Positions 43,844 to 49,274 of a stretch of DNA of 64,000 bases are shown here, piece by piece (the first letter of the stretch is position 1; the number at the start of each line of letters is the position of its first letter). The stretch is from Fibrobacteria bacterium (GTDB taxonomy: Bacteria; Fibrobacterota; Fibrobacteria; UBA11236), in the NCBI GenBank assembly GCA_043745805.1, contig JAYTSD010000008.1, forward strand, positions 288,001-352,000, in the 5' to 3' direction. The position numbers and the translations under genes were made by a program. Under the pieces are notes generated by a model. The model worked only from the letters and a program-made list of their open reading frames with translations. It had not been told where the DNA came from and did not search any database.

Positions 43844-44235
43844 AAGGTATGGATCTTGTTAACCGCGCAGCGGGAATATTATTCAGCAAAAAAGTGGTGG
43901 ATGCAATACTTATTGATTTACATGAATTAAGTAGCATCACCGATTATTACTTAATCTGTACTTGCCAGAATGAAGCGCAGATGAAAGCGGTGTTAAATCA
44001 TCTATCGAGAGCTTTAAGCCGCGAAGGCGCAAAAGCTTTACGTTCAGAGTATCGCCAAGGTGTACGCTGGGCGGTATTAGATTATGGCGAGTTAATCGTG
44101 CATTTATTTGAAAAAGATACGCGTAATTATTATTCATTGGAAAGACTTTGGGCGGATGCAAAAGTAACGCCACTTAAAGCTGAAGACTATATCACTACGG
44201 AAGAGGACAGCGACAGCGAGGATGACGAACTATAA
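43822..44235 (+). CDS. rsfS: Ribosome silencing factor
   Basis: TDYYLICT, WAVLDYGELIVHLF and RNYYSLERLWADA. Confidence 0.95.
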   Translation: MAKTKTLEGMDLVNRAAGILFSKKVVDAILIDLHELSSITDYYLICTCQNEAQMKAVLNHLSRALSREGAKALRSEYRQGVRWAVLDYGELIVHLFEKDTRNYYSLERLWADAKVTPLKAEDYITTEEDSDSEDDEL

Positions 44236-45937
44236 ATTAGCGATAGCGGAAACGCTCGCTCCCCTCATTGGAATTAACCCCGAAGAAATTCAAGCACAAA
44301 TTTCCTATCCACAAAATCCTCTGCATGGGGATTTTGCTTTTCCTTGTTTTGCCTTAGCGAAACTGCAACGTAAGGCTCCGCCATTAATTGCAAAAGAGTT
44401 AGCAGAAAAACTTACCCTCCAATCCCCTTTAGAAAAGGTGGAAGCGATAAATGGATATTTAAATTTTTTTGTAAGTGCGAAATATTTTGCTGAAGAAACC
44501 TTAAGTGAAATATCTTCTCAAGGCAAAGCCTATGGCGATAATACCTTGGGTAAAGATCAAACTTGCTTGATAGACTTTTCGTCTCCAAACATGGGTAAAG
44601 AATTGGTATTCCATCATTTACGTGGAACTATGCTAGGTAATGCATTAAGTAAAATTTTTCATAAATCGGGGTATCATGTAGTGCGCATCAATCACTTAGG
44701 GGATTGGGGCACCTCCTATGGCAAACTCATTGTCATGTTTTTGGAGCAAGGTGATTATAATGATAGTGATTTAGAAAAATTAACTTTAGAAAAGCTCAAC
44801 GCTTTATATAAACAATTTTCTCATGCCGCAGAACTTAATCCCGAATTAGAAAATTCCGCGCGACAGGCTTTTCAAAAATTAGAATCTGGCGATCAAGAGT
44901 ATTTTAAACTGTGGAAAACTTTTCGTGAAGTCACACTTAAGGAATTAAAAAGACTCTATGCCATTTTGGATGTTGAATTTGATCATTATGTAGGTGAAGC
45001 TTTTTTTATCGATAAAATTTCACCAGTGATCGAAACGTTACAATCGAAAAACTTATTGGTAAATAGCCAAGGTGCGGTTATCGTTGACTTAAGCGCGTTT
45101 GAGCTTCCTCCTTTATTAATACAAAAAAGTGATGGCGCCACCTTGTATGCCACACGTGATATAGCCGCAGCGATTTATAGACAAGCTGAATTTAAATTCG
45201 ACAAATGCTTATACATTGTCGACAATGGGCAGTCACTGCACTTCCAACAGTTTTTTAAAGTTTTAGAATTAATGGAATATAGCTGGTGGAATAAATGCGA
45301 GCATATTCCTTTTGGCTTAGTGCTCAATAAAAGCGATGAAGGCAAATGGGAAAAAGGGAAAACCCGTTCCGGTCATTCCAGCTTACTCAAAGATGTGATT
45401 GAAAAAGGCGAAGACCGCGTTTTGGAAATCATGAGCGAAAAAAACCCCGCTTTAGGACAAAAAAGAGAGCTCGCGCAAAAAATTGTTATCGGTGCTTTAG
45501 TGTTTGATGATTTAAAAAATCGCCGCTTGAATGATATTCGTTTTGAATGGGAAAGAGTTTTAAGTTTTGAAGGTGACTCTGGGCCTTATGTACAAAATGC
45601 GCATGTTCGCCTTTGCAGTATACTTCGTAAAGGTCCAGCATTAAGTAAGCCCCATGAATTGGATTTTTCTTGTTTGCACGATCCACAAGCCAAGAGCCTG
45701 ATCCATGCCTTATACTTATTCCCAGAAAAAATAAAAGCTGCCTTGCTGATTTGTGATCCATGTTTGATTGGACAATATATTTTAGAAATCGCCGAAAATG
45801 TGCATGGCTTTGTGCATTCTTGTCGCGTTTTAGGAAGTCCCGAAGAAAAAGAACGGTTATTTTTGATTTATTGCGCTAAATCCGTATTAGCAAATGCCTT
45901 AGAATTACTTGGCGTTCCTGCGATTGAAGAGATGTAG
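44222..45937 (+). CDS. argS: Arginine--tRNA ligase (non-canonical HIGH/KMSKS motifs)
   Basis: GDFAFPCF, DFSSPN, NHLGDWG, KSDGATLYATRDIAA, LSFEGDSGPYVQ and C-terminal LGV....M. Confidence 0.96.
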   Translation: MTNYKLAIAETLAPLIGINPEEIQAQISYPQNPLHGDFAFPCFALAKLQRKAPPLIAKELAEKLTLQSPLEKVEAINGYLNFFVSAKYFAEETLSEISSQGKAYGDNTLGKDQTCLIDFSSPNMGKELVFHHLRGTMLGNALSKIFHKSGYHVVRINHLGDWGTSYGKLIVMFLEQGDYNDSDLEKLTLEKLNALYKQFSHAAELNPELENSARQAFQKLESGDQEYFKLWKTFREVTLKELKRLYAILDVEFDHYVGEAFFIDKISPVIETLQSKNLLVNSQGAVIVDLSAFELPPLLIQKSDGATLYATRDIAAAIYRQAEFKFDKCLYIVDNGQSLHFQQFFKVLELMEYSWWNKCEHIPFGLVLNKSDEGKWEKGKTRSGHSSLLKDVIEKGEDRVLEIMSEKNPALGQKRELAQKIVIGALVFDDLKNRRLNDIRFEWERVLSFEGDSGPYVQNAHVRLCSILRKGPALSKPHELDFSCLHDPQAKSLIHALYLFPEKIKAALLICDPCLIGQYILEIAENVHGFVHSCRVLGSPEEKERLFLIYCAKSVLANALELLGVPAIEEM

Positions 45938-46022
45938 CGTTTATCGCTACCCTTCTCTACTTTATCTTCTCATTTTTTTTATAAACTCATCAAAAAAACA
46001 CGTCAATACTGCATTCGTAATC

Positions 46023-46049
46023 ATAACTCATTTTAAATCAATGAGTTAT
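46023..46049. repeat. Perfect 10-bp inverted repeat with 7-bp spacer
   Basis: ATAACTCATT-TTAAATC-AATGAGTTAT. Confidence 0.8.
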
Positions 46050-46141
46050 TTGTTTAGGTTTTTTCTACGGCACAGTAGCTTTAAGGTTGCGAGAGAAAAA
46101 AAATTACAATCAATAATATGCGTTAATTAATTTTGATCCAT

Positions 46142-46173
46142 AAAAAACGGAGGCCAAGATCTCTTGGCCTCCG
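46142..46173 (-). terminator. Intrinsic terminator of the small basic peptide gene
   Basis: Minus strand reads CGGAGGCCAAG-AGAT-CTTGGCCTCCG-TTTTTT. Confidence 0.9.
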
Positions 46174-46212
46174 CATAAGGCATTGATATTACTGCAATTG
46201 CAGCAGCAATCC

Positions 46213-46299
46213 TTATTTCTTCTTCTTGGTAGCTTTCTTGACTACTTTCTTTGTTGCTTTTTTTGCAACTTTTTTTGCAGCTTTCTTCTTAGCGGCCAT
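46213..46299 (-). CDS. 28-aa histone-H1-like Lys-rich peptide MAAKKKAAKKVAKKATKKVVKKATKKKK (below the ORF-track length cut-off)
   Basis: ATG..TAA open frame with 15 Lys in 28 residues. SD AAGGAGGTGATC at 46302-46313. Has its own promoter and terminator. Confidence 0.85.
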   Translation of the reverse strand: MAAKKKAAKKVAKKATKKVVKKATKKKK

Positions 46300-46530
46300 G
46301 AGATCACCTCCTTCCGGCTTTTAAATTTTTAAAATACGATTATTGTTTTTGAAAAATTTTTTGAAAAAAAGTTTTGCTCGTTGCAATTTTTTCGAGCTGG
46401 CGAAATACCATTTGAGCTCGATAAAATAAGGTCGGAATACGAGTAACGAGGGAGTAACATCCGCGTTTCAGTAGTTTTTTTGAAGAGTGTTTGATTCAAT
46501 TTCTTCCTTACACTTCGTCTCAACAAATAA

Positions 46531-46559
46531 ATGATAAAGAACTTGACAGCAATAGTCAA
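46531..46559 (-). promoter_or_regulatory. Sigma70-type promoter of the peptide gene with overlapping CTTGAC-N7-GTCAAG palindrome
   Basis: Minus strand TTGACT-N17-TATCAT. Palindrome at 46542-46560. Confidence 0.65.
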
Positions 46560-46601
46560 GCAATTATTTCACTTTTGTTAATTTATTTTTTTCGTTGCTG
46601 A

Positions 46602-49274
46602 TCAAATTGAACTTAATTCGATTTTGAGAGTAGTAATAATTTTATCAATCATTTCTTGTCCAACAATTTTTTCTTCATGCATATCCGTGATATAAAAAGA
46701 ATCCATTGCCTTATCTGCTTCCGTTGTAAGTACAGCTCCATGCACATTCAGACGTAACTCGCTGAAGACCTTAGTCACTTGATATAAAAGCCCCAATCTA
46801 TCTTTACAAGTGAAATCAACAGTGCTAAAAGAATCGCTAATGGTATTCGAGAAAAAAATTTCCGCCGCAACCGGCAATTCTTTCCTCTTTCCGAATTGAA
46901 AACCGGTTTTGAATTTTTTTTGCAAAGTAAAAAGCTCTTCGCGTGACAATCGAAAATTCTTTTCCAACTCTTCACATAACTTTTTTTTGAGACTTTCAGG
47001 CGTAAATTTATTTCGTGCCGACACCGAAACTTGGAATTTATCAATCGCTACGCCATCAATACGGGTGTAGATGTGAGAACTAAGGATTGATAGCTCTAGA
47101 TGCGCCATAGTGCCTGCAATGCCACACAGAAGGGCTACATCATCAGCAGCGACAATGGTTACTTCCCAATGTGTATTTGTCGCGAAAACCTGTGCATTGA
47201 ATTTTTGCTTTCCTAAAGTGCTGATCAACTGTATATGTTGAATAATTTCTTCCGGTGAAGTGGAGTTTGCATAATGTCCGGGTAAAAGTTCCAGATGAGT
47301 TCTCACTTCTTGCTCAGAAAATCTCTTGCTAATATTTTCGATGAGCATTTCTTGCAGATCTCGTTTACTGATAGCGGCTTCCATAGGAGTTTGCATTGCT
47401 TCTAAAGCAAGATTATAAAGTTTTTGTAAAAGTGAAGCTTTCCAATTGGACCAAGCATCGGGATGTACCGAAGAAACATCGCAATAAGTTAAAACGTACA
47501 GTTTATGCAAAGTAGCGGGTGTTTCCACTTTAGCAATAAAGTCACGAATGGTTTTGGGATCCCCTAAATCTCTTCTTTGAATAATTTCATTCATTAATAA
47601 ATGATGCAGTACTAAATTAGAAGCCTCTTTACAACGCGAAGCAGAAAATCCCATCGCATCCATATAGTCGAAAACCATTTTTGCGCCGGTTATACTATGC
47701 TTGGGTCCCACGCCCTTCCCTATATCATGAAAAAAACTAACCAGCACCAAAGTGTCCATGTCATTTACCAGCGATACTGCTTTTCTTAAGGAAGACAATT
47801 CTTTTTCCGGACGTTGTCCTAAATAAGCGAGCTGTCGTACTACGGTAATGGTATGTTCATCCGTGGTATAGATATGGTAAATGTCATGCTGACTATGACA
47901 ATAGATATAATTGAAATCGGGAATAATAAGCCCAATCAATCCAACATCATTCATCGCGCGTAACATTCGTCCTACGCGCAACGGACTTTTACACAAACGT
48001 AAAAACTCGGGAAGATATTCTTTAGGTTCAAATTGCGATGCCGATAATACACTTACAGCTTGTTTAATGCGCATCACGGCATGATGGGCGTAGCCAAAGT
48101 TTTTTTCATTAGCAAGCTCAAAATACTCCATGATTAAGTTCACTTGATCAATGAAAGGGTTACCTACACGCGCCTTAATATCCAATGCGTCGTCTTCTAC
48201 TTTAAAGTGTGCATGGTTTTTTAAATTTTCTCTGGATCCTTTAGCACCCTCAGGTTTTACCCAACGAGAAATTACCGCTTCGGTAATGCGATTAATGGTT
48301 TTGGTATGGTGATAAAAAACTTTAAGGAAAACTTCGACGGGTTTTTGATTGGCTTCCTCTTTAAAATCTAATTCCAAGGCAATTTCCGGCTGGATTTCAA
48401 AAGAAAGATAATCGTCTTTTTTTTGCGTAATGAAATGCAAACAGCAGCGAACTTGCAAAAGGAAATCATAAGCCACACGAATATCTTCCAATTCTTGCGG
48501 CGTAATAAATCCTTCACGCACTAAATCCTCAAAATCTTGACAACTATATTTTACTTGCGCAATCCACATCATGGAATGCACGTCGCGTAAACATCCATTG
48601 CCTTCTTTAAGATTGGGTTCCAATAATTGCACCAATAATCCAGTTTGAGATTTGCGATGCTCGCGCTCTTTAATTTTTGCTTCAATCAAAGCGGAACTAC
48701 GCCAAGAAAATAAAGGCTTCTTCATAAGCTTCACAAATTTGCGATACAAGCCATGATTGCCCGATAAAAAGCGCTCATTTAAAAAAGAGGTCCATGTTTC
48801 CGCATCTTTTTTCGATGCCTCCTCGCATTGACTTAAGCTGCGTACCGATGAACCTACTACAAAACCATAATCCCATAAATTACGCACGATGATTTCTGCT
48901 TGACGTAACTCTTCAGTCGTTGGACTGGAAGAAGTGAGAATTAAAATATCAATATCGCTTTGCGGACAAAGTTCCATGCGACCATAGCCTCCCACAGCCA
49001 CAATGCTCACTAAATCATCTTCATTGGGAACCGACATTTCGATTTGATCCCACATCACGCGAATTAAAGTATCCGCCATTTCACTTATAAAACGTACCGT
49101 TTCCGTTCCTGAGGCGCCGCTTCGATTTAGGAGACGGATTTTTTCCCTTTGCTTAGCTAAGACAGTTTTAATGGAACTAATTTGTTCCGCCGATGATTTC
49201 CGATTATAACATTCACGTAATGCTTCTACAAAATCACCTTGCATACCAAAACGATGGTAATAACGTTGTACCAT
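46602..49274 (-). CDS. glnD: [Protein-PII] uridylyltransferase/uridylyl-removing enzyme
   Basis: AVGGYGRMELCPQSDIDIL, EPNLKEG.GCLRD, YHIYTTDEH, HDIGKG and two C-terminal ACT domains (DRLGLLY). Confidence 0.95.
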   Translation of the reverse strand: MVQRYYHRFGMQGDFVEALRECYNRKSSAEQISSIKTVLAKQREKIRLLNRSGASGTETVRFISEMADTLIRVMWDQIEMSVPNEDDLVSIVAVGGYGRMELCPQSDIDILILTSSSPTTEELRQAEIIVRNLWDYGFVVGSSVRSLSQCEEASKKDAETWTSFLNERFLSGNHGLYRKFVKLMKKPLFSWRSSALIEAKIKEREHRKSQTGLLVQLLEPNLKEGNGCLRDVHSMMWIAQVKYSCQDFEDLVREGFITPQELEDIRVAYDFLLQVRCCLHFITQKKDDYLSFEIQPEIALELDFKEEANQKPVEVFLKVFYHHTKTINRITEAVISRWVKPEGAKGSRENLKNHAHFKVEDDALDIKARVGNPFIDQVNLIMEYFELANEKNFGYAHHAVMRIKQAVSVLSASQFEPKEYLPEFLRLCKSPLRVGRMLRAMNDVGLIGLIIPDFNYIYCHSQHDIYHIYTTDEHTITVVRQLAYLGQRPEKELSSLRKAVSLVNDMDTLVLVSFFHDIGKGVGPKHSITGAKMVFDYMDAMGFSASRCKEASNLVLHHLLMNEIIQRRDLGDPKTIRDFIAKVETPATLHKLYVLTYCDVSSVHPDAWSNWKASLLQKLYNLALEAMQTPMEAAISKRDLQEMLIENISKRFSEQEVRTHLELLPGHYANSTSPEEIIQHIQLISTLGKQKFNAQVFATNTHWEVTIVAADDVALLCGIAGTMAHLELSILSSHIYTRIDGVAIDKFQVSVSARNKFTPESLKKKLCEELEKNFRLSREELFTLQKKFKTGFQFGKRKELPVAAEIFFSNTISDSFSTVDFTCKDRLGLLYQVTKVFSELRLNVHGAVLTTEADKAMDSFYITDMHEEKIVGQEMIDKIITTLKIELSSI

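What the first reader, a model, noticed from the sequence alone, without database searches (positions are those of the whole stretch)
46142..46560. Hidden stand-alone gene for a 28-aa (KKxx)n histone-H1-like micro-protein
Seen: the minus-strand ORF 46299-46213 encodes MAAK-KKAA-KKVA-KKAT-KKVV-KKAT-KKKK, with strict 4-residue periodicity, 15 Lys, and no acidic or aromatic residues. It has every hallmark of an expressed unit: a TTGACT-N17-TATCAT promoter, an AAGGAGGTGATC SD and a strong GC hairpin-U6 terminator. It is below the ORF-track cut-off, so standard pipelines would miss it. Known: Lys/Ala-repeat bacterial H1-like proteins (Chlamydia Hc2, Bordetella BpH1, HupB tails) condense DNA but are much longer. 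Inference: this may be a minimal nucleoid-condensing or polyanion-binding (DNA/RNA/polyP/ribosome) peptide made of the repeat alone.
Basis: partly seen in the sequence, partly recalled or inferred. Interest (0 to 1): 0.8.

Follow-up and report, generated by a model that had tools for sequence, protein, structure and literature searches.

The report
Conserved hidden polylysine micro-protein gene
A 28-codon gene that gene callers skip encodes a peptide that is more than half lysine; related sediment bacteria keep it at the same spot and look-alikes occur in many other phyla, so it is a real gene for a tiny, very positive peptide that probably coats DNA or RNA, which is untested.

Summary
The minus-strand ORF 46299-46213 encodes MAAKKKAAKKVAKKATKKVVKKATKKKK. 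It has a TTGACT-N17-TATCAT promoter, the only AAGGAGGTGATC in the 3.95-Mb genome, and a 12-bp hairpin-U6 terminator.

It is a real gene. All 19 relatives' loci first fetched carry a 19-45-aa MA[AT]KKK(KKxx)n ORF in the same glnD-argS slot. The SD-plus-start pattern occurs once per genome in 28 of 31 family relatives and in 0 of 263 genomes of other families of the phylum. Third codon positions vary about three times more than first or second. None of 8 peptides looked up is in a 15-billion-protein collection.

The same pattern found 119 loci across many phyla, and 98 are acid-free lysine-rich ORFs of 10-49 aa. Earlier notes of this scan describe similar micro-genes in Patescibacteria, Nitrospira and Asgard archaea.

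Function is inferred, not shown. The most likely product is an abundant polycation (+14.5) that binds DNA or RNA. It is not bS22, since the genome has its own bS22. It matches no Hc2 or H1 model. No RNA data exist. I rate it a new variant of a known kind, interest about 0.6.

The parts
46531..46559 (-). Promoter TTGACT-N17-TATCAT (-35 at 46559-46554, -10 at 46536-46531)
   Evidence: 10 of 12 matches. The DNA patch 46569-46525 is one of only two conserved patches in relatives. The same 31-nt architecture is present in all 26 unique family loci extracted.
46542..46560 (.). Palindrome CTTGAC-N7-GTCAAG spanning the -35 box and the spacer; candidate operator (inferred)
   Evidence: One search lists it as a hairpin on both strands. 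It is conserved as TTGACT-N5-AGTCAA in relatives. TTGAC-N7-GTCAA occurs 7 times in G000, against 1-2 times for spacings 5, 6, 8 and 9.
46300..46524 (-). 5' leader of about 225 nt; the start at 46524 is inferred as 7 nt after the -10 box. AU-rich just before the SD
   Evidence: Leader length is 171-243 nt in 25 of 26 unique loci (353 nt in one), while the sequence is poorly conserved. The whole transcript folds with z = -3.3 against shuffles.
46302..46313 (-). Shine-Dalgarno AAGGAGGTGATC, a 12-nt complement of the 16S rRNA 3' tail
   Evidence: It is unique in the genome. The 16S 3' end reads ...GGATCACCTCCT in 2 relatives of the family (2 of 4 searched had it assembled). GGAGG(G)AGGTGAT is conserved in the relatives.
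46213..46299 (-). Micro-ORF of 28 codons plus TAA: MAAKKKAAKKVAKKATKKVVKKATKKKK (3.07 kDa, net charge +14.5)
   Evidence: AlphaFold2 models the 35-aa orthologue, with the family alignment, as one helix with mean pLDDT 80.
46188..46210 (-). 3'-UTR hairpin 1 (8 bp, predicted)
   Evidence: minimum-free-energy structure. Relatives have a hairpin of different sequence at the same place.
46142..46174 (-). Intrinsic terminator GCGGAGGCCAAG-AGAT-CTTGGCCTCCGT plus U6. The 5' arm is SD-like (GGAGG) and the 3' arm is anti-SD-like (CCUCC)
   Evidence: An SD-like purine box sits in the 5' arm in 24 of 26 unique family 3' UTRs, and CCTCC/CTTCC-type plus a T-run in 23 of 26. The inner stem covaries.

Best explanation
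This is a real, independently transcribed and very efficiently translated gene for a 28-residue polycationic micro-protein (15 Lys, net charge about +14.5, no acidic or aromatic residue).

The unit has these parts:
- A near-consensus promoter overlapped by a palindrome, which may be a regulator site.
- A leader of about 225 nt ending in an AU-rich stretch.
- The strongest possible Shine-Dalgarno sequence.
- The ORF.
- A small 3' hairpin.
- An intrinsic terminator.

Inferred mechanism: the peptide is made in large amounts and binds cellular polyanions through charge. It probably folds into a single lysine-studded helix once its charge is neutralised. Chromosomal DNA is the most likely partner, giving H1-tail or protamine-like charge neutralisation and compaction. 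RNA and ribosomes are the next most likely partners.

Shown here: the gene structure, its conservation, and selection on the peptide's charge. Inferred: expression level, binding partner and physiological role.
For: Gene reality:
- All 19 of 19 relatives' loci carry the ORF with ATG, SD and frame kept. Lengths are 19-45 aa.
- 17 of 19 loci show both glnD and argS. The other two are cut by contig ends.
- The SD-plus-start pattern is single-copy in 28 of 31 family relatives and 1 of 1 f3 genome. It is in 0 of 263 other genomes of the phylum, and the reversed control gives 0.
- Two of the three family genomes that one search missed do have the gene (G014; G001 and G014).
- The sister family f2 keeps a 35-86-aa version in the same slot.

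Coding signal:
- Summed entropy by codon position is 6.97 / 7.66 / 23.13 over 13 unique 28-codon alleles.
- Lys columns are invariant.
- The variable positions use A, V, T and S, rarely P and G, and never D or E.
- Among 98 micro-ORFs from many phyla there are 114 Val and 27 Gly but 0 Asp/Glu, although GAN is one step from GCN just as GTN and GGN are.

High expression signals:
- The 12-nt SD is unique in the genome.
- Only 3% of 2000 long ORFs have GGAGG upstream.
- The promoter and terminator are conserved.

Polyanion binding:
- Charge is +14.5.
- One helix is predicted.
- The same repeat is fused to a SWIB/MDM2 domain in a sister-family genome, E = 5.3e-29.
- By analogy, Lys/Ala-repeat tails of AlgP bind DNA and associate with polyP granules (PMC9239181, abstract read). 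The KPAA region of PhaF binds RNA (PMC12818456, abstract read).
Against: - There is no expression evidence of any kind. No RNA run holds the locus, so transcription and translation rest on sequence signals.
- No binding partner was tested.
- Gene neighbourhoods of look-alike micro-ORFs in other phyla are heterogeneous: UvrA, UDG, RecA, class II aaRS, RsfS, PrmC, CHAD. They point to no single process.
- The genome already has 4 HU/IHF-family genes and a 189-aa H1/AlgP-like protein, so a further DNA coat is not obviously needed.
- It also has PPK1 and PPK2, so polyphosphate is an available alternative partner.
- Pairwise synonymous (472) and non-synonymous (426) codon differences are similar. 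Selection is on charge and composition, not on exact sequence.
- The third-position wobble is also synonymous in one antisense frame, so it does not by itself fix the strand.
Confidence: 0.5

Rival explanations
1. The peptide is a ribosome- or rRNA-associated micro-protein. It would be a lineage-specific extra ribosomal protein or ribosome-bound polycation in the manner of bS22, bL37, bTHX or eL41.
For: - Size and charge match known ribosomal micro-proteins.
- The best SD in the genome suggests ribosomal-protein-like abundance.
- Translation genes lie nearby: argS is convergent and rsfS is 2 kb away.
- An Omnitrophota look-alike directly follows rsfS, and others sit by a class II aaRS and by PrmC.
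- Parcubacteria carry an Ala/Lys-rich tail of about 25 aa on uS19 (PMC9297842, passage read).
Against: - There is no match to any solved chain at E <= 10.
- The bS22 role is already filled by a separate 31-aa gene, E = 8.1e-8 to 7jil_5.
- Known ribosomal micro-proteins are Arg-rich with fixed sequences. This one is Arg-free, repeat-built and varies from 19 to about 86 aa within one order, which fits poorly with a defined rRNA pocket.
- Neighbourhoods also include DNA-repair genes.
Confidence: 0.2
2. The peptide binds polyphosphate, or bridges polyphosphate granules and DNA, as proposed for the KPAA tail of AlgP. It may act in nitrogen limitation, given the conserved position just after glnD.
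For: - The genome has two PPK1 genes and one PPK2 gene.
- An Acidobacteriota look-alike lies next to a CHAD-domain gene.
- AlgP associates with polyP granules during nitrogen starvation (PMC9239181, abstract read).
- No terminator with a U-run separates glnD from the unit.
Against: - Only 1 of about 20 neighbours examined is polyP-related.
- The link to glnD is position only.
- The unit has its own conserved promoter.
Confidence: 0.1
3. The transcript itself is the functional product, or is dual-function. It could be an RNA that titrates 30S subunits or an RNA-binding protein through its perfect SD, its purine (AAR)n tract, or its 3' end that mimics the 16S tail.
For: - The leader is long, about 225 nt.
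- In one genus (g3) the leader has covarying stems. P1 shows CG:6 UA:4 AU:1, and P2 has up to 7 double changes.
- A hairpin with the conserved loop CAAUAACCAC is shared by several genera.
- The terminator arms are conserved as GGAGG / CCUCC.
- The transcript folds better than shuffles, z = -3.3.
Against: - The leader elements are not conserved in the window's own genus, in g5 or in f3. The ATG, the frame and the Lys columns are conserved everywhere.
- Indels keep the frame.
- Acidic codons are excluded.
- No Rfam family reaches threshold. The best is atoC RNA at 28.5 bits against 50.
Confidence: 0.1
4. The real gene is on the opposite strand: a small hydrophobic F/L-rich peptide of the type I toxin kind. 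The lysine frame would be its antisense.
For: Two antisense frames are open across the ORF in all 26 unique alleles checked. One reads YFFFLVAFLTTFFVAFFATFFAAFFLAA and shares the wobble positions.
Against: - That openness is forced by Lys/Ala/Val/Thr codons.
- The antisense frame has no Met and no SD.
- It shows radical V/E/D/A swaps where the sense frame has T/S/A.
- Promoter, SD, ATG and terminator are all conserved on the lysine strand.
Confidence: 0.02
5. It is a regulatory leader or arrest peptide that senses lysyl-tRNA supply or ribosome stalling on poly-lysine.
For: There are 15 Lys codons, including two A7 runs.
Against: Nothing lies downstream to regulate. A strong terminator follows, and the next gene, argS, is convergent.
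Confidence: 0.03

Closest known systems
Chlamydial Hc2 (HctB, Pfam PF07382) and Hc2-like Lys/Ala-repeat proteins
   Same: Both have a Lys/Ala-rich short-period repeat, extreme positive charge and no globular domain. Hc2 binds DNA (PMC2848022, abstract start seen in the listing). The nearest ESM Atlas cluster that has any Pfam family carries HC2 on 17% of its members.
   Different: Hc2 is 165-237 aa with pentamer repeats (same abstract). This peptide is 28 aa with a 4-residue period, and no HMM matches it. This is a likeness of composition, not shown homology.
AlgP and PhaF of Pseudomonas aeruginosa (KPAA-repeat disordered regions)
   Same: Both are lysine/alanine repeat polycations. AlgP binds DNA and associates with polyP granules (PMC9239181, abstract read). 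The PhaF repeat region binds RNA upstream of the SD and activates translation (PMC12818456, abstract and introduction read). These papers show which partners such repeats can have.
   Different: Those repeats contain proline, are about 150 aa long and are attached to other domains. This peptide is the repeat alone, has no proline and is predicted helical.
Ribosomal micro-proteins bS22 (AURKAIP1/COX24-like), bL37, bTHX, eL41
   Same: All are 24-33 aa, very basic and often unannotated.
   Different: There is no sequence match. The genome has a separate bS22. Those proteins are Arg-rich, have fixed sequences and are not repeats. The bL37, bTHX and eL41 features are recalled, not tested.
Lys/Ala tails of HupB/MDP1, HbhA and mycobacterial Ku (PAKKA/AKKA repeats)
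   Same: These are short-period Lys/Ala repeats that bind nucleic acids. The papers appeared in the listings, where only abstract starts were seen.
   Different: They are C-terminal tails of folded proteins and contain proline.
Lysine-rich micro-genes noted earlier in this scan (Patescibacteria, Nitrospira, Asgard: e1-723448, e1-5128941, e1-860169, e1-878493, e1-5415569)
   Same: All are unannotated 9-58-codon lysine-rich ORFs with their own promoter, leader and terminator. My pattern scan independently recovered such ORFs in Patescibacteria, Nitrospiraceae and other phyla.
   Different: This one is the Fibrobacteria version. It has a fixed glnD-argS position, a strict KKxx period and a 12-nt SD. 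Common descent with the others is not shown, because low-complexity sequences can converge.

Membership tests
Hc2 / histone H1-like nucleoprotein (Pfam PF07382) | Match to the family HMM | tested here: not met
   0 Pfam families at E <= 0.01 for the 28-aa peptide; 0 NCBIfam families at E <= 10.
Hc2 / histone H1-like nucleoprotein (Pfam PF07382) | Length of 165-237 aa built from lysine-rich pentamers (PMC2848022 abstract) | tested here: not met
   The peptide is 28 aa with a 4-residue period.
Hc2 / histone H1-like nucleoprotein (Pfam PF07382) | Binds and condenses DNA | not testable with these tools
   This needs EMSA or a compaction assay with the peptide.
Eukaryote-type linker histone H1 | Globular winged-helix domain (PF00538) flanked by basic tails | tested here: not met
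   No Pfam hit. 28 aa cannot hold the domain.
Ribosomal protein bS22 (AURKAIP1/COX24-like) | Sequence similarity to bS22 chains of solved ribosomes | tested here: not met
   0 chains at E <= 10. A different 31-aa gene of the same genome matches 7jil_5 at 8.1e-8 and 8fmw_V at 9.3e-8.
AlgP/PhaF-type KPAA repeat region | KPAA (proline-containing) repeat unit | tested here: not met
   The window peptide has no proline. Only 9 Pro occur among about 2350 residues of the 98 micro-ORFs.
Independent bacterial transcription unit (sigma-70-type promoter, SD, ORF, intrinsic terminator) | All four signals present and conserved in orthologous loci | tested here: met
Independent bacterial transcription unit (sigma-70-type promoter, SD, ORF, intrinsic terminator) | Transcript and translation observed | not testable with these tools
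   only 4 DNA runs from one sediment study hold the locus, and no RNA run does.
atoC RNA motif (Rfam RF01733) | Score at or above the gathering threshold | tested here: not met
   28.5 bits against 50. The match rests on the terminator hairpin.
Type I toxin (small hydrophobic peptide with antisense RNA) | Hydrophobic ORF with its own start and SD on the opposite strand | tested here: not met
   the antisense frames are open, but they have no Met or SD and show radical substitutions.

The most novel reading that the evidence does not exclude
This gene is the Fibrobacteria representative of a pan-bacterial, almost wholly unannotated class of 10-50-residue polylysine micro-proteins starting MA[AT]KKK. 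Each is translated from a full complement of the 16S 3' tail. Together they would act as a genetically encoded general polycation, a ribosomally made counterpart of polyamines or protamine that neutralises DNA or rRNA charge, and possibly a still unseen ribosome or nucleoid component in many uncultured phyla. The conserved terminator whose 3' arm mimics the anti-SD could add a layer of self-control of translation.
Probability: 0.3. Interest if true: 0.8.

Novelty: new variant of a known kind. Interest (0 to 1): 0.6.

Why it matters
Lys/Ala-repeat 'H1-like' proteins are known in bacteria only as long proteins or as tails of folded proteins. Here the repeat alone is a gene.

- It is conserved across an order of uncultured Fibrobacteria.
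- It is built for maximal translation.
- It is invisible to gene callers.
- One pattern scan recovered 98 comparable micro-ORFs from many phyla.

Such peptides may therefore be a common but uncounted component of bacterial cells. If they are abundant, they change estimates of the cellular polycation budget (polyamines, Mg2+, nucleoid proteins). They would also be missed by tryptic proteomics, because trypsin cleaves at lysine.

The finding gives a concrete, cheap test object: a 3-kDa peptide that can be synthesised.

Six searches of the held library found no description of this class, and one look inside the sORFdb paper found none either. Supplementary tables of small-protein surveys could not be opened and might list such families.

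Tried and rejected
- Rfam scan of 45800-46900 at E <= 10: 7 weak matches, none near threshold. atoC RNA is rejected because the hit is the terminator only.
- Pfam and NCBIfam on the peptide and two longer orthologues: nothing meaningful.
With the 45-aa orthologue it scored 8000 candidates and returned one 76-aa protein at E = 0.021, which is uninformative for low-complexity queries.
- Protein search across the class with the 45-aa orthologue: low sensitivity. It missed known carriers in genus g4, so its 0 of 12 (f4) and 0 of 34 (f5) mean 'not found with this query'.
- Sequencing runs: no RNA holder is listed. There are 4 DNA runs from one sediment study, 2 of them possibly the source. Read laying was not used, because DNA contigs cannot show expression.
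- 16S 3' end of G000: not assembled. It was taken from 2 relatives instead.
- SWIB domain in G000: none found, but the control rang in no genome, so this is weak.
- HU, PPK1 and PPK2 are all present, so gene content does not separate DNA from polyP as a partner.
- Neighbourhoods of look-alikes in other phyla: no common theme.
- Antisense hydrophobic ORF: rejected.
- Leader as a conserved riboswitch-like element: covariation in one genus only, and it is not conserved in the window's genus. No covariance model was built.
- ESM Atlas: only unnamed small 'hypothetical protein' clusters.
- Complex prediction and fold search were not used, since there is no protein partner or fold to test.
- timed out because of a script bug. 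It was fixed.
Full report
**1. The observation**

ORF 46299..46213 is listed as a 28-aa ATG ORF and encodes MAAKKKAAKKVAKKATKKVVKKATKKKK. It has 15 Lys, no acidic or aromatic residue, a mass of 3069 Da and a net charge of +14.5. The Lys periodicity peaks at 85-90 degrees per residue, which is a period of 4.

- The promoter scan finds TTGACT-17-TATCAT at 46559..46531 with 10 of 12 matches.
- The terminator scan finds a 12-pair hairpin (8 G-C) at 46174..46147 followed by T6.
- The number of promoter-like sites in the region (4) is what shuffles give (3.4 +/- 1.8), so the promoter match alone is weak evidence.
- Terminator-like sites (5) exceed shuffles (0.8 +/- 1.0).
- The SD AAGGAGGTGATC lies at 46313..46302, 2 nt before the ATG.
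- The flanking genes are glnD (46602-49274, minus) and argS (44222-45937, plus) by Pfam.

**2. It is a conserved gene**

A DNA search of 41 genomes (G000 plus 40 relatives) with 46100-46620 hit 27 of them. By family the hits were f1 21 of 24, f2 4 of 6, f3 1 of 1, f4 0 of 5 and f5 0 of 4. The matches fall in only two patches: SD plus ORF (46331-46214), and the promoter (about 46569-46525). The leader between them is not alignable by BLAST.

All 19 relatives' loci returned carry an ORF MA[AT]KKK(KKxx)n of 19-45 aa, preceded by GGAGGGAGGTGAT. In 17 of the 19 loci both GlnD and ArgS flank it. The other two loci end at a contig edge.

The exact pattern GGAGGTGAT-N2-6-ATG GCN RCN AAR AAR AAR gave these counts, with 0 for the reversed control everywhere:

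| Group | Genomes with the pattern |
|---|---|
| f1 relatives | 28 of 31 (once per genome) |
| f3 | 1 of 1 |
| Other families of the phylum | 0 of 263 |

- Of the three f1 misses, G014 has a 61-aa version starting MAIKKK, and G001 has the KKK-xx-KK repeat DNA.
- G022, which is 84% complete, showed nothing.
- The sister family f2 keeps a lysine-rich ORF in the same glnD-argS slot: L145 with 42 aa, L147 with 35 aa and L143 with about 86 aa, all with the SD GAGAGGGGGTGAT.
- In f4 and f5 nothing comparable was found with the queries used. In one search, 6 of 66 f5 genomes have some KKxx-type DNA of another kind, and the single f4 hit is a poly-A run.
- Within G000 the gene is single-copy.

One genome, G021 (loci L005 and L158), is flagged unpublished.

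**3. Who carries it**

Relatives' loci from the named collection that carry the same 28-aa ORF are labelled by their depositors Fibrobacteres, Fibrobacteria or Fibrobacterota (L035, L053, L069, L070, L081, L086). One is labelled Bifidobacteriales and some only 'bacterium'.

The window's genome is a 3.95-Mb, 40% G+C assembly. Its DNA is held by four sediment-metagenome runs of one study. I take it to be an uncultured member of the class Fibrobacteria outside the Fibrobacter family. That last point is an inference from the family sizes.

**4. Coding or not**

- Thirteen unique 28-codon alleles show summed entropies of 6.97, 7.66 and 23.13 at codon positions 1, 2 and 3.
- In an alignment of 13 orthologues, M1, A2 and the Lys columns are invariant. 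The x positions vary among A, V, T and S, rarely P.
- Length changes keep the frame.
- Pairwise codon differences are 472 synonymous and 426 non-synonymous. Selection therefore acts on charge and composition, not on exact sequence.
- One caveat I checked: because AAR codons read YTT on the other strand, two antisense frames are necessarily open. One of them shares the wobble positions and would give an F/L-rich hydrophobic peptide.
- That antisense frame has no Met and no SD. It shows V/E/D/A swaps where the sense frame has T/S/A. Promoter, SD, ATG and terminator are all conserved on the lysine strand. I reject the antisense gene.
- A charge argument also favours the peptide. Among 98 look-alike micro-ORFs there are 603 Ala, 114 Val and 27 Gly but 0 Asp/Glu, although GAN is as close to GCN as GTN and GGN are.

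**5. Signals for strong expression**

- AAGGAGGTGATC occurs once in the genome, and GGAGGTGA occurs 54 times, mostly not before genes.
- The 16S 3' end is not assembled in G000. In two family relatives it reads ...GGATCACCTCCT (2 of 4 searched). The SD is therefore a 10-12-nt perfect complement.
- Among 2000 long ORFs of G000, 33% have a 4-mer SD core upstream against 6% in a control window. Only 3% have GGAGG and 0.5% have GGAGGT.
- The spacing from GGAGG to the ATG is 7 nt, and an AU-rich tract precedes the SD.

**6. Other conserved anatomy**

- *Promoter.* It is conserved as a whole block, TTGACT-N5-AGTCAA-N3-CTTTATCAT, including a palindrome that covers the -35 box and the spacer. Housekeeping promoters do not usually conserve the spacer, so a regulator site is likely. 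This is an inference.
- *Palindrome elsewhere in G000.* TTGAC-N7-GTCAA occurs 7 times, against 1-2 for other spacings. One copy, at G000:C14:87585, has the same promoter architecture. It precedes about 170 nt of non-coding sequence with a terminator-like hairpin and no Rfam family.
- *Leader.* It is 171-243 nt in 25 of 26 unique loci.
- *Leader structure in genus g3.* RNAalifold gives a closing stem GYAGGA/UCCURC (CG:6, UA:4, AU:1). It also gives an inner hairpin with up to 7 double changes, and a hairpin with the conserved loop CAAUAACCAC.
- *Leader in other genera.* Genus g4 keeps only that last hairpin. The window's own leader has none of these in recognisable form, although its transcript folds better than shuffles with z = -3.3.
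- *3' UTR.* A small hairpin of varying sequence follows the stop codon. Then comes a terminator whose 5' arm is SD-like (UUAAGGGAGG) in 24 of 26 unique 3' UTRs. Its 3' arm plus tail reads CCUCCUUUUU in 23 of 26, and the inner stem covaries.
- Two of the three misses are truncations by my extraction rule. L009 is a real exception.
- Why the mRNA 3' end should mimic the 16S tail is unexplained.

**7. The wider class**

A uniform-random expectation for this pattern in 596 Gb is about 0.1 by my own arithmetic.

| Class of locus | Count of 119 |
|---|---|
| ORFs of 10-49 aa with at least 40% Lys and no acidic residue (66 distinct peptides) | 98 |
| Longer lysine-rich ORFs | 6 |
| Intermediate | 3 |
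| Ordinary proteins | 5 |
| Run off the stored locus | 7 |

- Depositor labels include Eisenbacteria, which have a nearly invariant 22-mer with a 5-residue period.
- Other labels are Patescibacteria groups, Nitrospiraceae, Acidobacteriota, Chloroflexi, Omnitrophota, Verrucomicrobiota, Planctomycetota and Gammaproteobacteria MAGs.
- The pattern fixes the SD and MA[AT]KKK, so those features are not independent findings. What is informative is that almost every such start is a micro-ORF.
- Neighbours differ from phylum to phylum: UvrA, HARE-HTH, class II aaRS, UDG, RecA, RsfS, CHAD and PrmC.
- Repeat periods also differ (4 here, 5 in Eisenbacteria). This fits selection for charge density, not for a specific fold, and leaves convergence as likely as common descent.
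- Earlier notes of this scan describe similar genes in Patescibacteria, Nitrospira and Asgard archaea. My scan recovers the bacterial ones independently.
- The ESM Atlas holds unnamed 'hypothetical protein' clusters of 42-49 aa with 86-166 members as nearest neighbours of the 45-aa orthologue.

**8. What it is not**

- No Pfam or NCBIfam model matches.
- No solved chain matches at E <= 10.
- The genome has its own bS22: a 31-aa gene at G000:C14 that matches bS22 chains 7jil_5 and 8fmw_V at about 1e-7. The peptide is therefore not bS22.
- None of the 8 exact peptides looked up is in the 15-billion-protein collection. This confirms that pipelines miss it.

**9. How it probably works**

The gene structure, its conservation and selection on charge are shown. 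The rest is inferred.

- A +14.5, 3-kDa peptide must spend its life on polyanions.
- AlphaFold2, given the family alignment, models the 35-aa orthologue as a single helix with mean pLDDT 80. With a 4-residue period the lysines spiral around that helix and do not form one face. This suits wrapping contacts with a phosphate backbone, not membrane insertion.
- I favour DNA as the partner, at about 0.45-0.5 of my belief. A sister-family genome fuses the same repeat to a SWIB/MDM2 domain, and Lys/Ala repeats are classic DNA condensers (Hc2, AlgP, HupB tails).
- Ribosome or RNA binding gets about 0.2. PhaF shows that such repeats can bind mRNA leaders, and Parcubacteria have such a tail on uS19.
- Polyphosphate gets about 0.1 (AlgP; PPK genes).
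- Gene content does not discriminate, because G000 also has 4 HU/IHF genes and a 189-aa H1/AlgP-like protein.

**10. Novelty and verdict**

- Six literature searches found no description of stand-alone polylysine micro-genes, and a look inside the sORFdb paper found none either.
- No paper in the held library prints the strings MAAKKKA or MATKKKA. In one search, 2 papers matched other strings and both were irrelevant.
- Supplementary tables were closed.
- The kind, a bacterial Lys/Ala 'H1-like' polycation, is known. The free-standing 20-45-aa form, its order-wide fixed locus, its maximal SD and its cross-phylum look-alikes are a new variant.
- Interest is 0.6. The gene is real and conserved and the class is probably widespread, but function is untested and the scan has already seen its like elsewhere.

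Noticed in passing
G000:C14:105779-105871 (L163:180-272, +): A 31-aa ORF, MPCGKKRKRKKMATHKRKKRRRLNRHKKKLV, is a bS22 ribosomal micro-protein homologue. phmmer E is 8.1e-8 to 7jil_5 and 9.3e-8 to 8fmw_V. No Pfam or NCBIfam model matched it at E <= 1, so it too is likely to go unannotated.
   Followed up: yes
G000:C46 (L164:244-810, +): A 189-aa protein has an acidic N-terminal third and a long AKKAAPKK-type H1/AlgP-like tail, with no Pfam or NCBIfam hit. The genome therefore also has a 'classical' long Lys/Ala-repeat protein.
   Followed up: partly
L144:1254-1718 (-), genome G027 (sister family f2): A 155-aa protein has an N-terminal (KKxx)n tail of about 75 aa fused to a SWIB/MDM2 domain (PF02201, E = 5.3e-29). 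In G029, L146 has a similar tail on a 114-aa protein with an unassigned C-terminal part.
   Followed up: partly
G000:C14:87585 (L165:786-816, then to about 990): A second copy of the micro-gene's promoter architecture, TTGACTtcggtAGTCAAGTTCCTTATATT. About 170 nt of non-coding sequence follows, containing CCCCUCCCC and a terminator-like AUUCCUUAUUAACGAGGAAGGGUUUUUU, before a 220-aa ORF. No Rfam family matches. It may be a co-regulated small RNA.
   Followed up: partly
L004:1575-1767 (-) and other genus g3 and g4 leaders (alignments A1, A2): A hairpin with the conserved loop CAAUAACCAC (CAAUGAAUAC in g4) sits in the 5' leader of the micro-gene in several genera. It is not in the window's own leader. 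Its partner is unknown.
   Followed up: partly
window 46142-46174 and the 3' UTRs of L002-L138: The terminator 5' arm copies the SD (UAAGGGAGG), and the transcript ends in CCUCCUUUUU, resembling the 16S rRNA 3' tail. This holds in 23-24 of 26 unique loci with a covarying inner stem. It is unexplained.
   Followed up: partly
L024, L025, L029, L036-L038, L040, L042, L044, L047 and many more: MAGs labelled Eisenbacteria share a nearly invariant 22-aa peptide, MAAKKKAAKKK[AGV]TKKKAAKKKK, with a 5-residue period. This is the largest single group among the 119 pattern hits.
   Followed up: no
L076:4299-4896 (Omnitrophota label); L057:6869-7869 (Acidobacteriota label): A 35-aa lysine-rich micro-ORF lies directly after rsfS in one lineage. 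In another, a 20-aa one lies next to a CHAD-domain (polyphosphate-associated) gene.
   Followed up: no
G040:C3:505434 onwards: A run of well over 1000 A residues in a class relative's contig produced about 1200 pattern and control hits. It looks like an assembly artefact.
   Followed up: no
window 46339-46367 (-): A second, weaker promoter-like site, TTTTCA-17-AATAAT (9 of 12), lies about 40 nt upstream of the ATG in the AU-rich tract. It was not examined for conservation.
   Followed up: no
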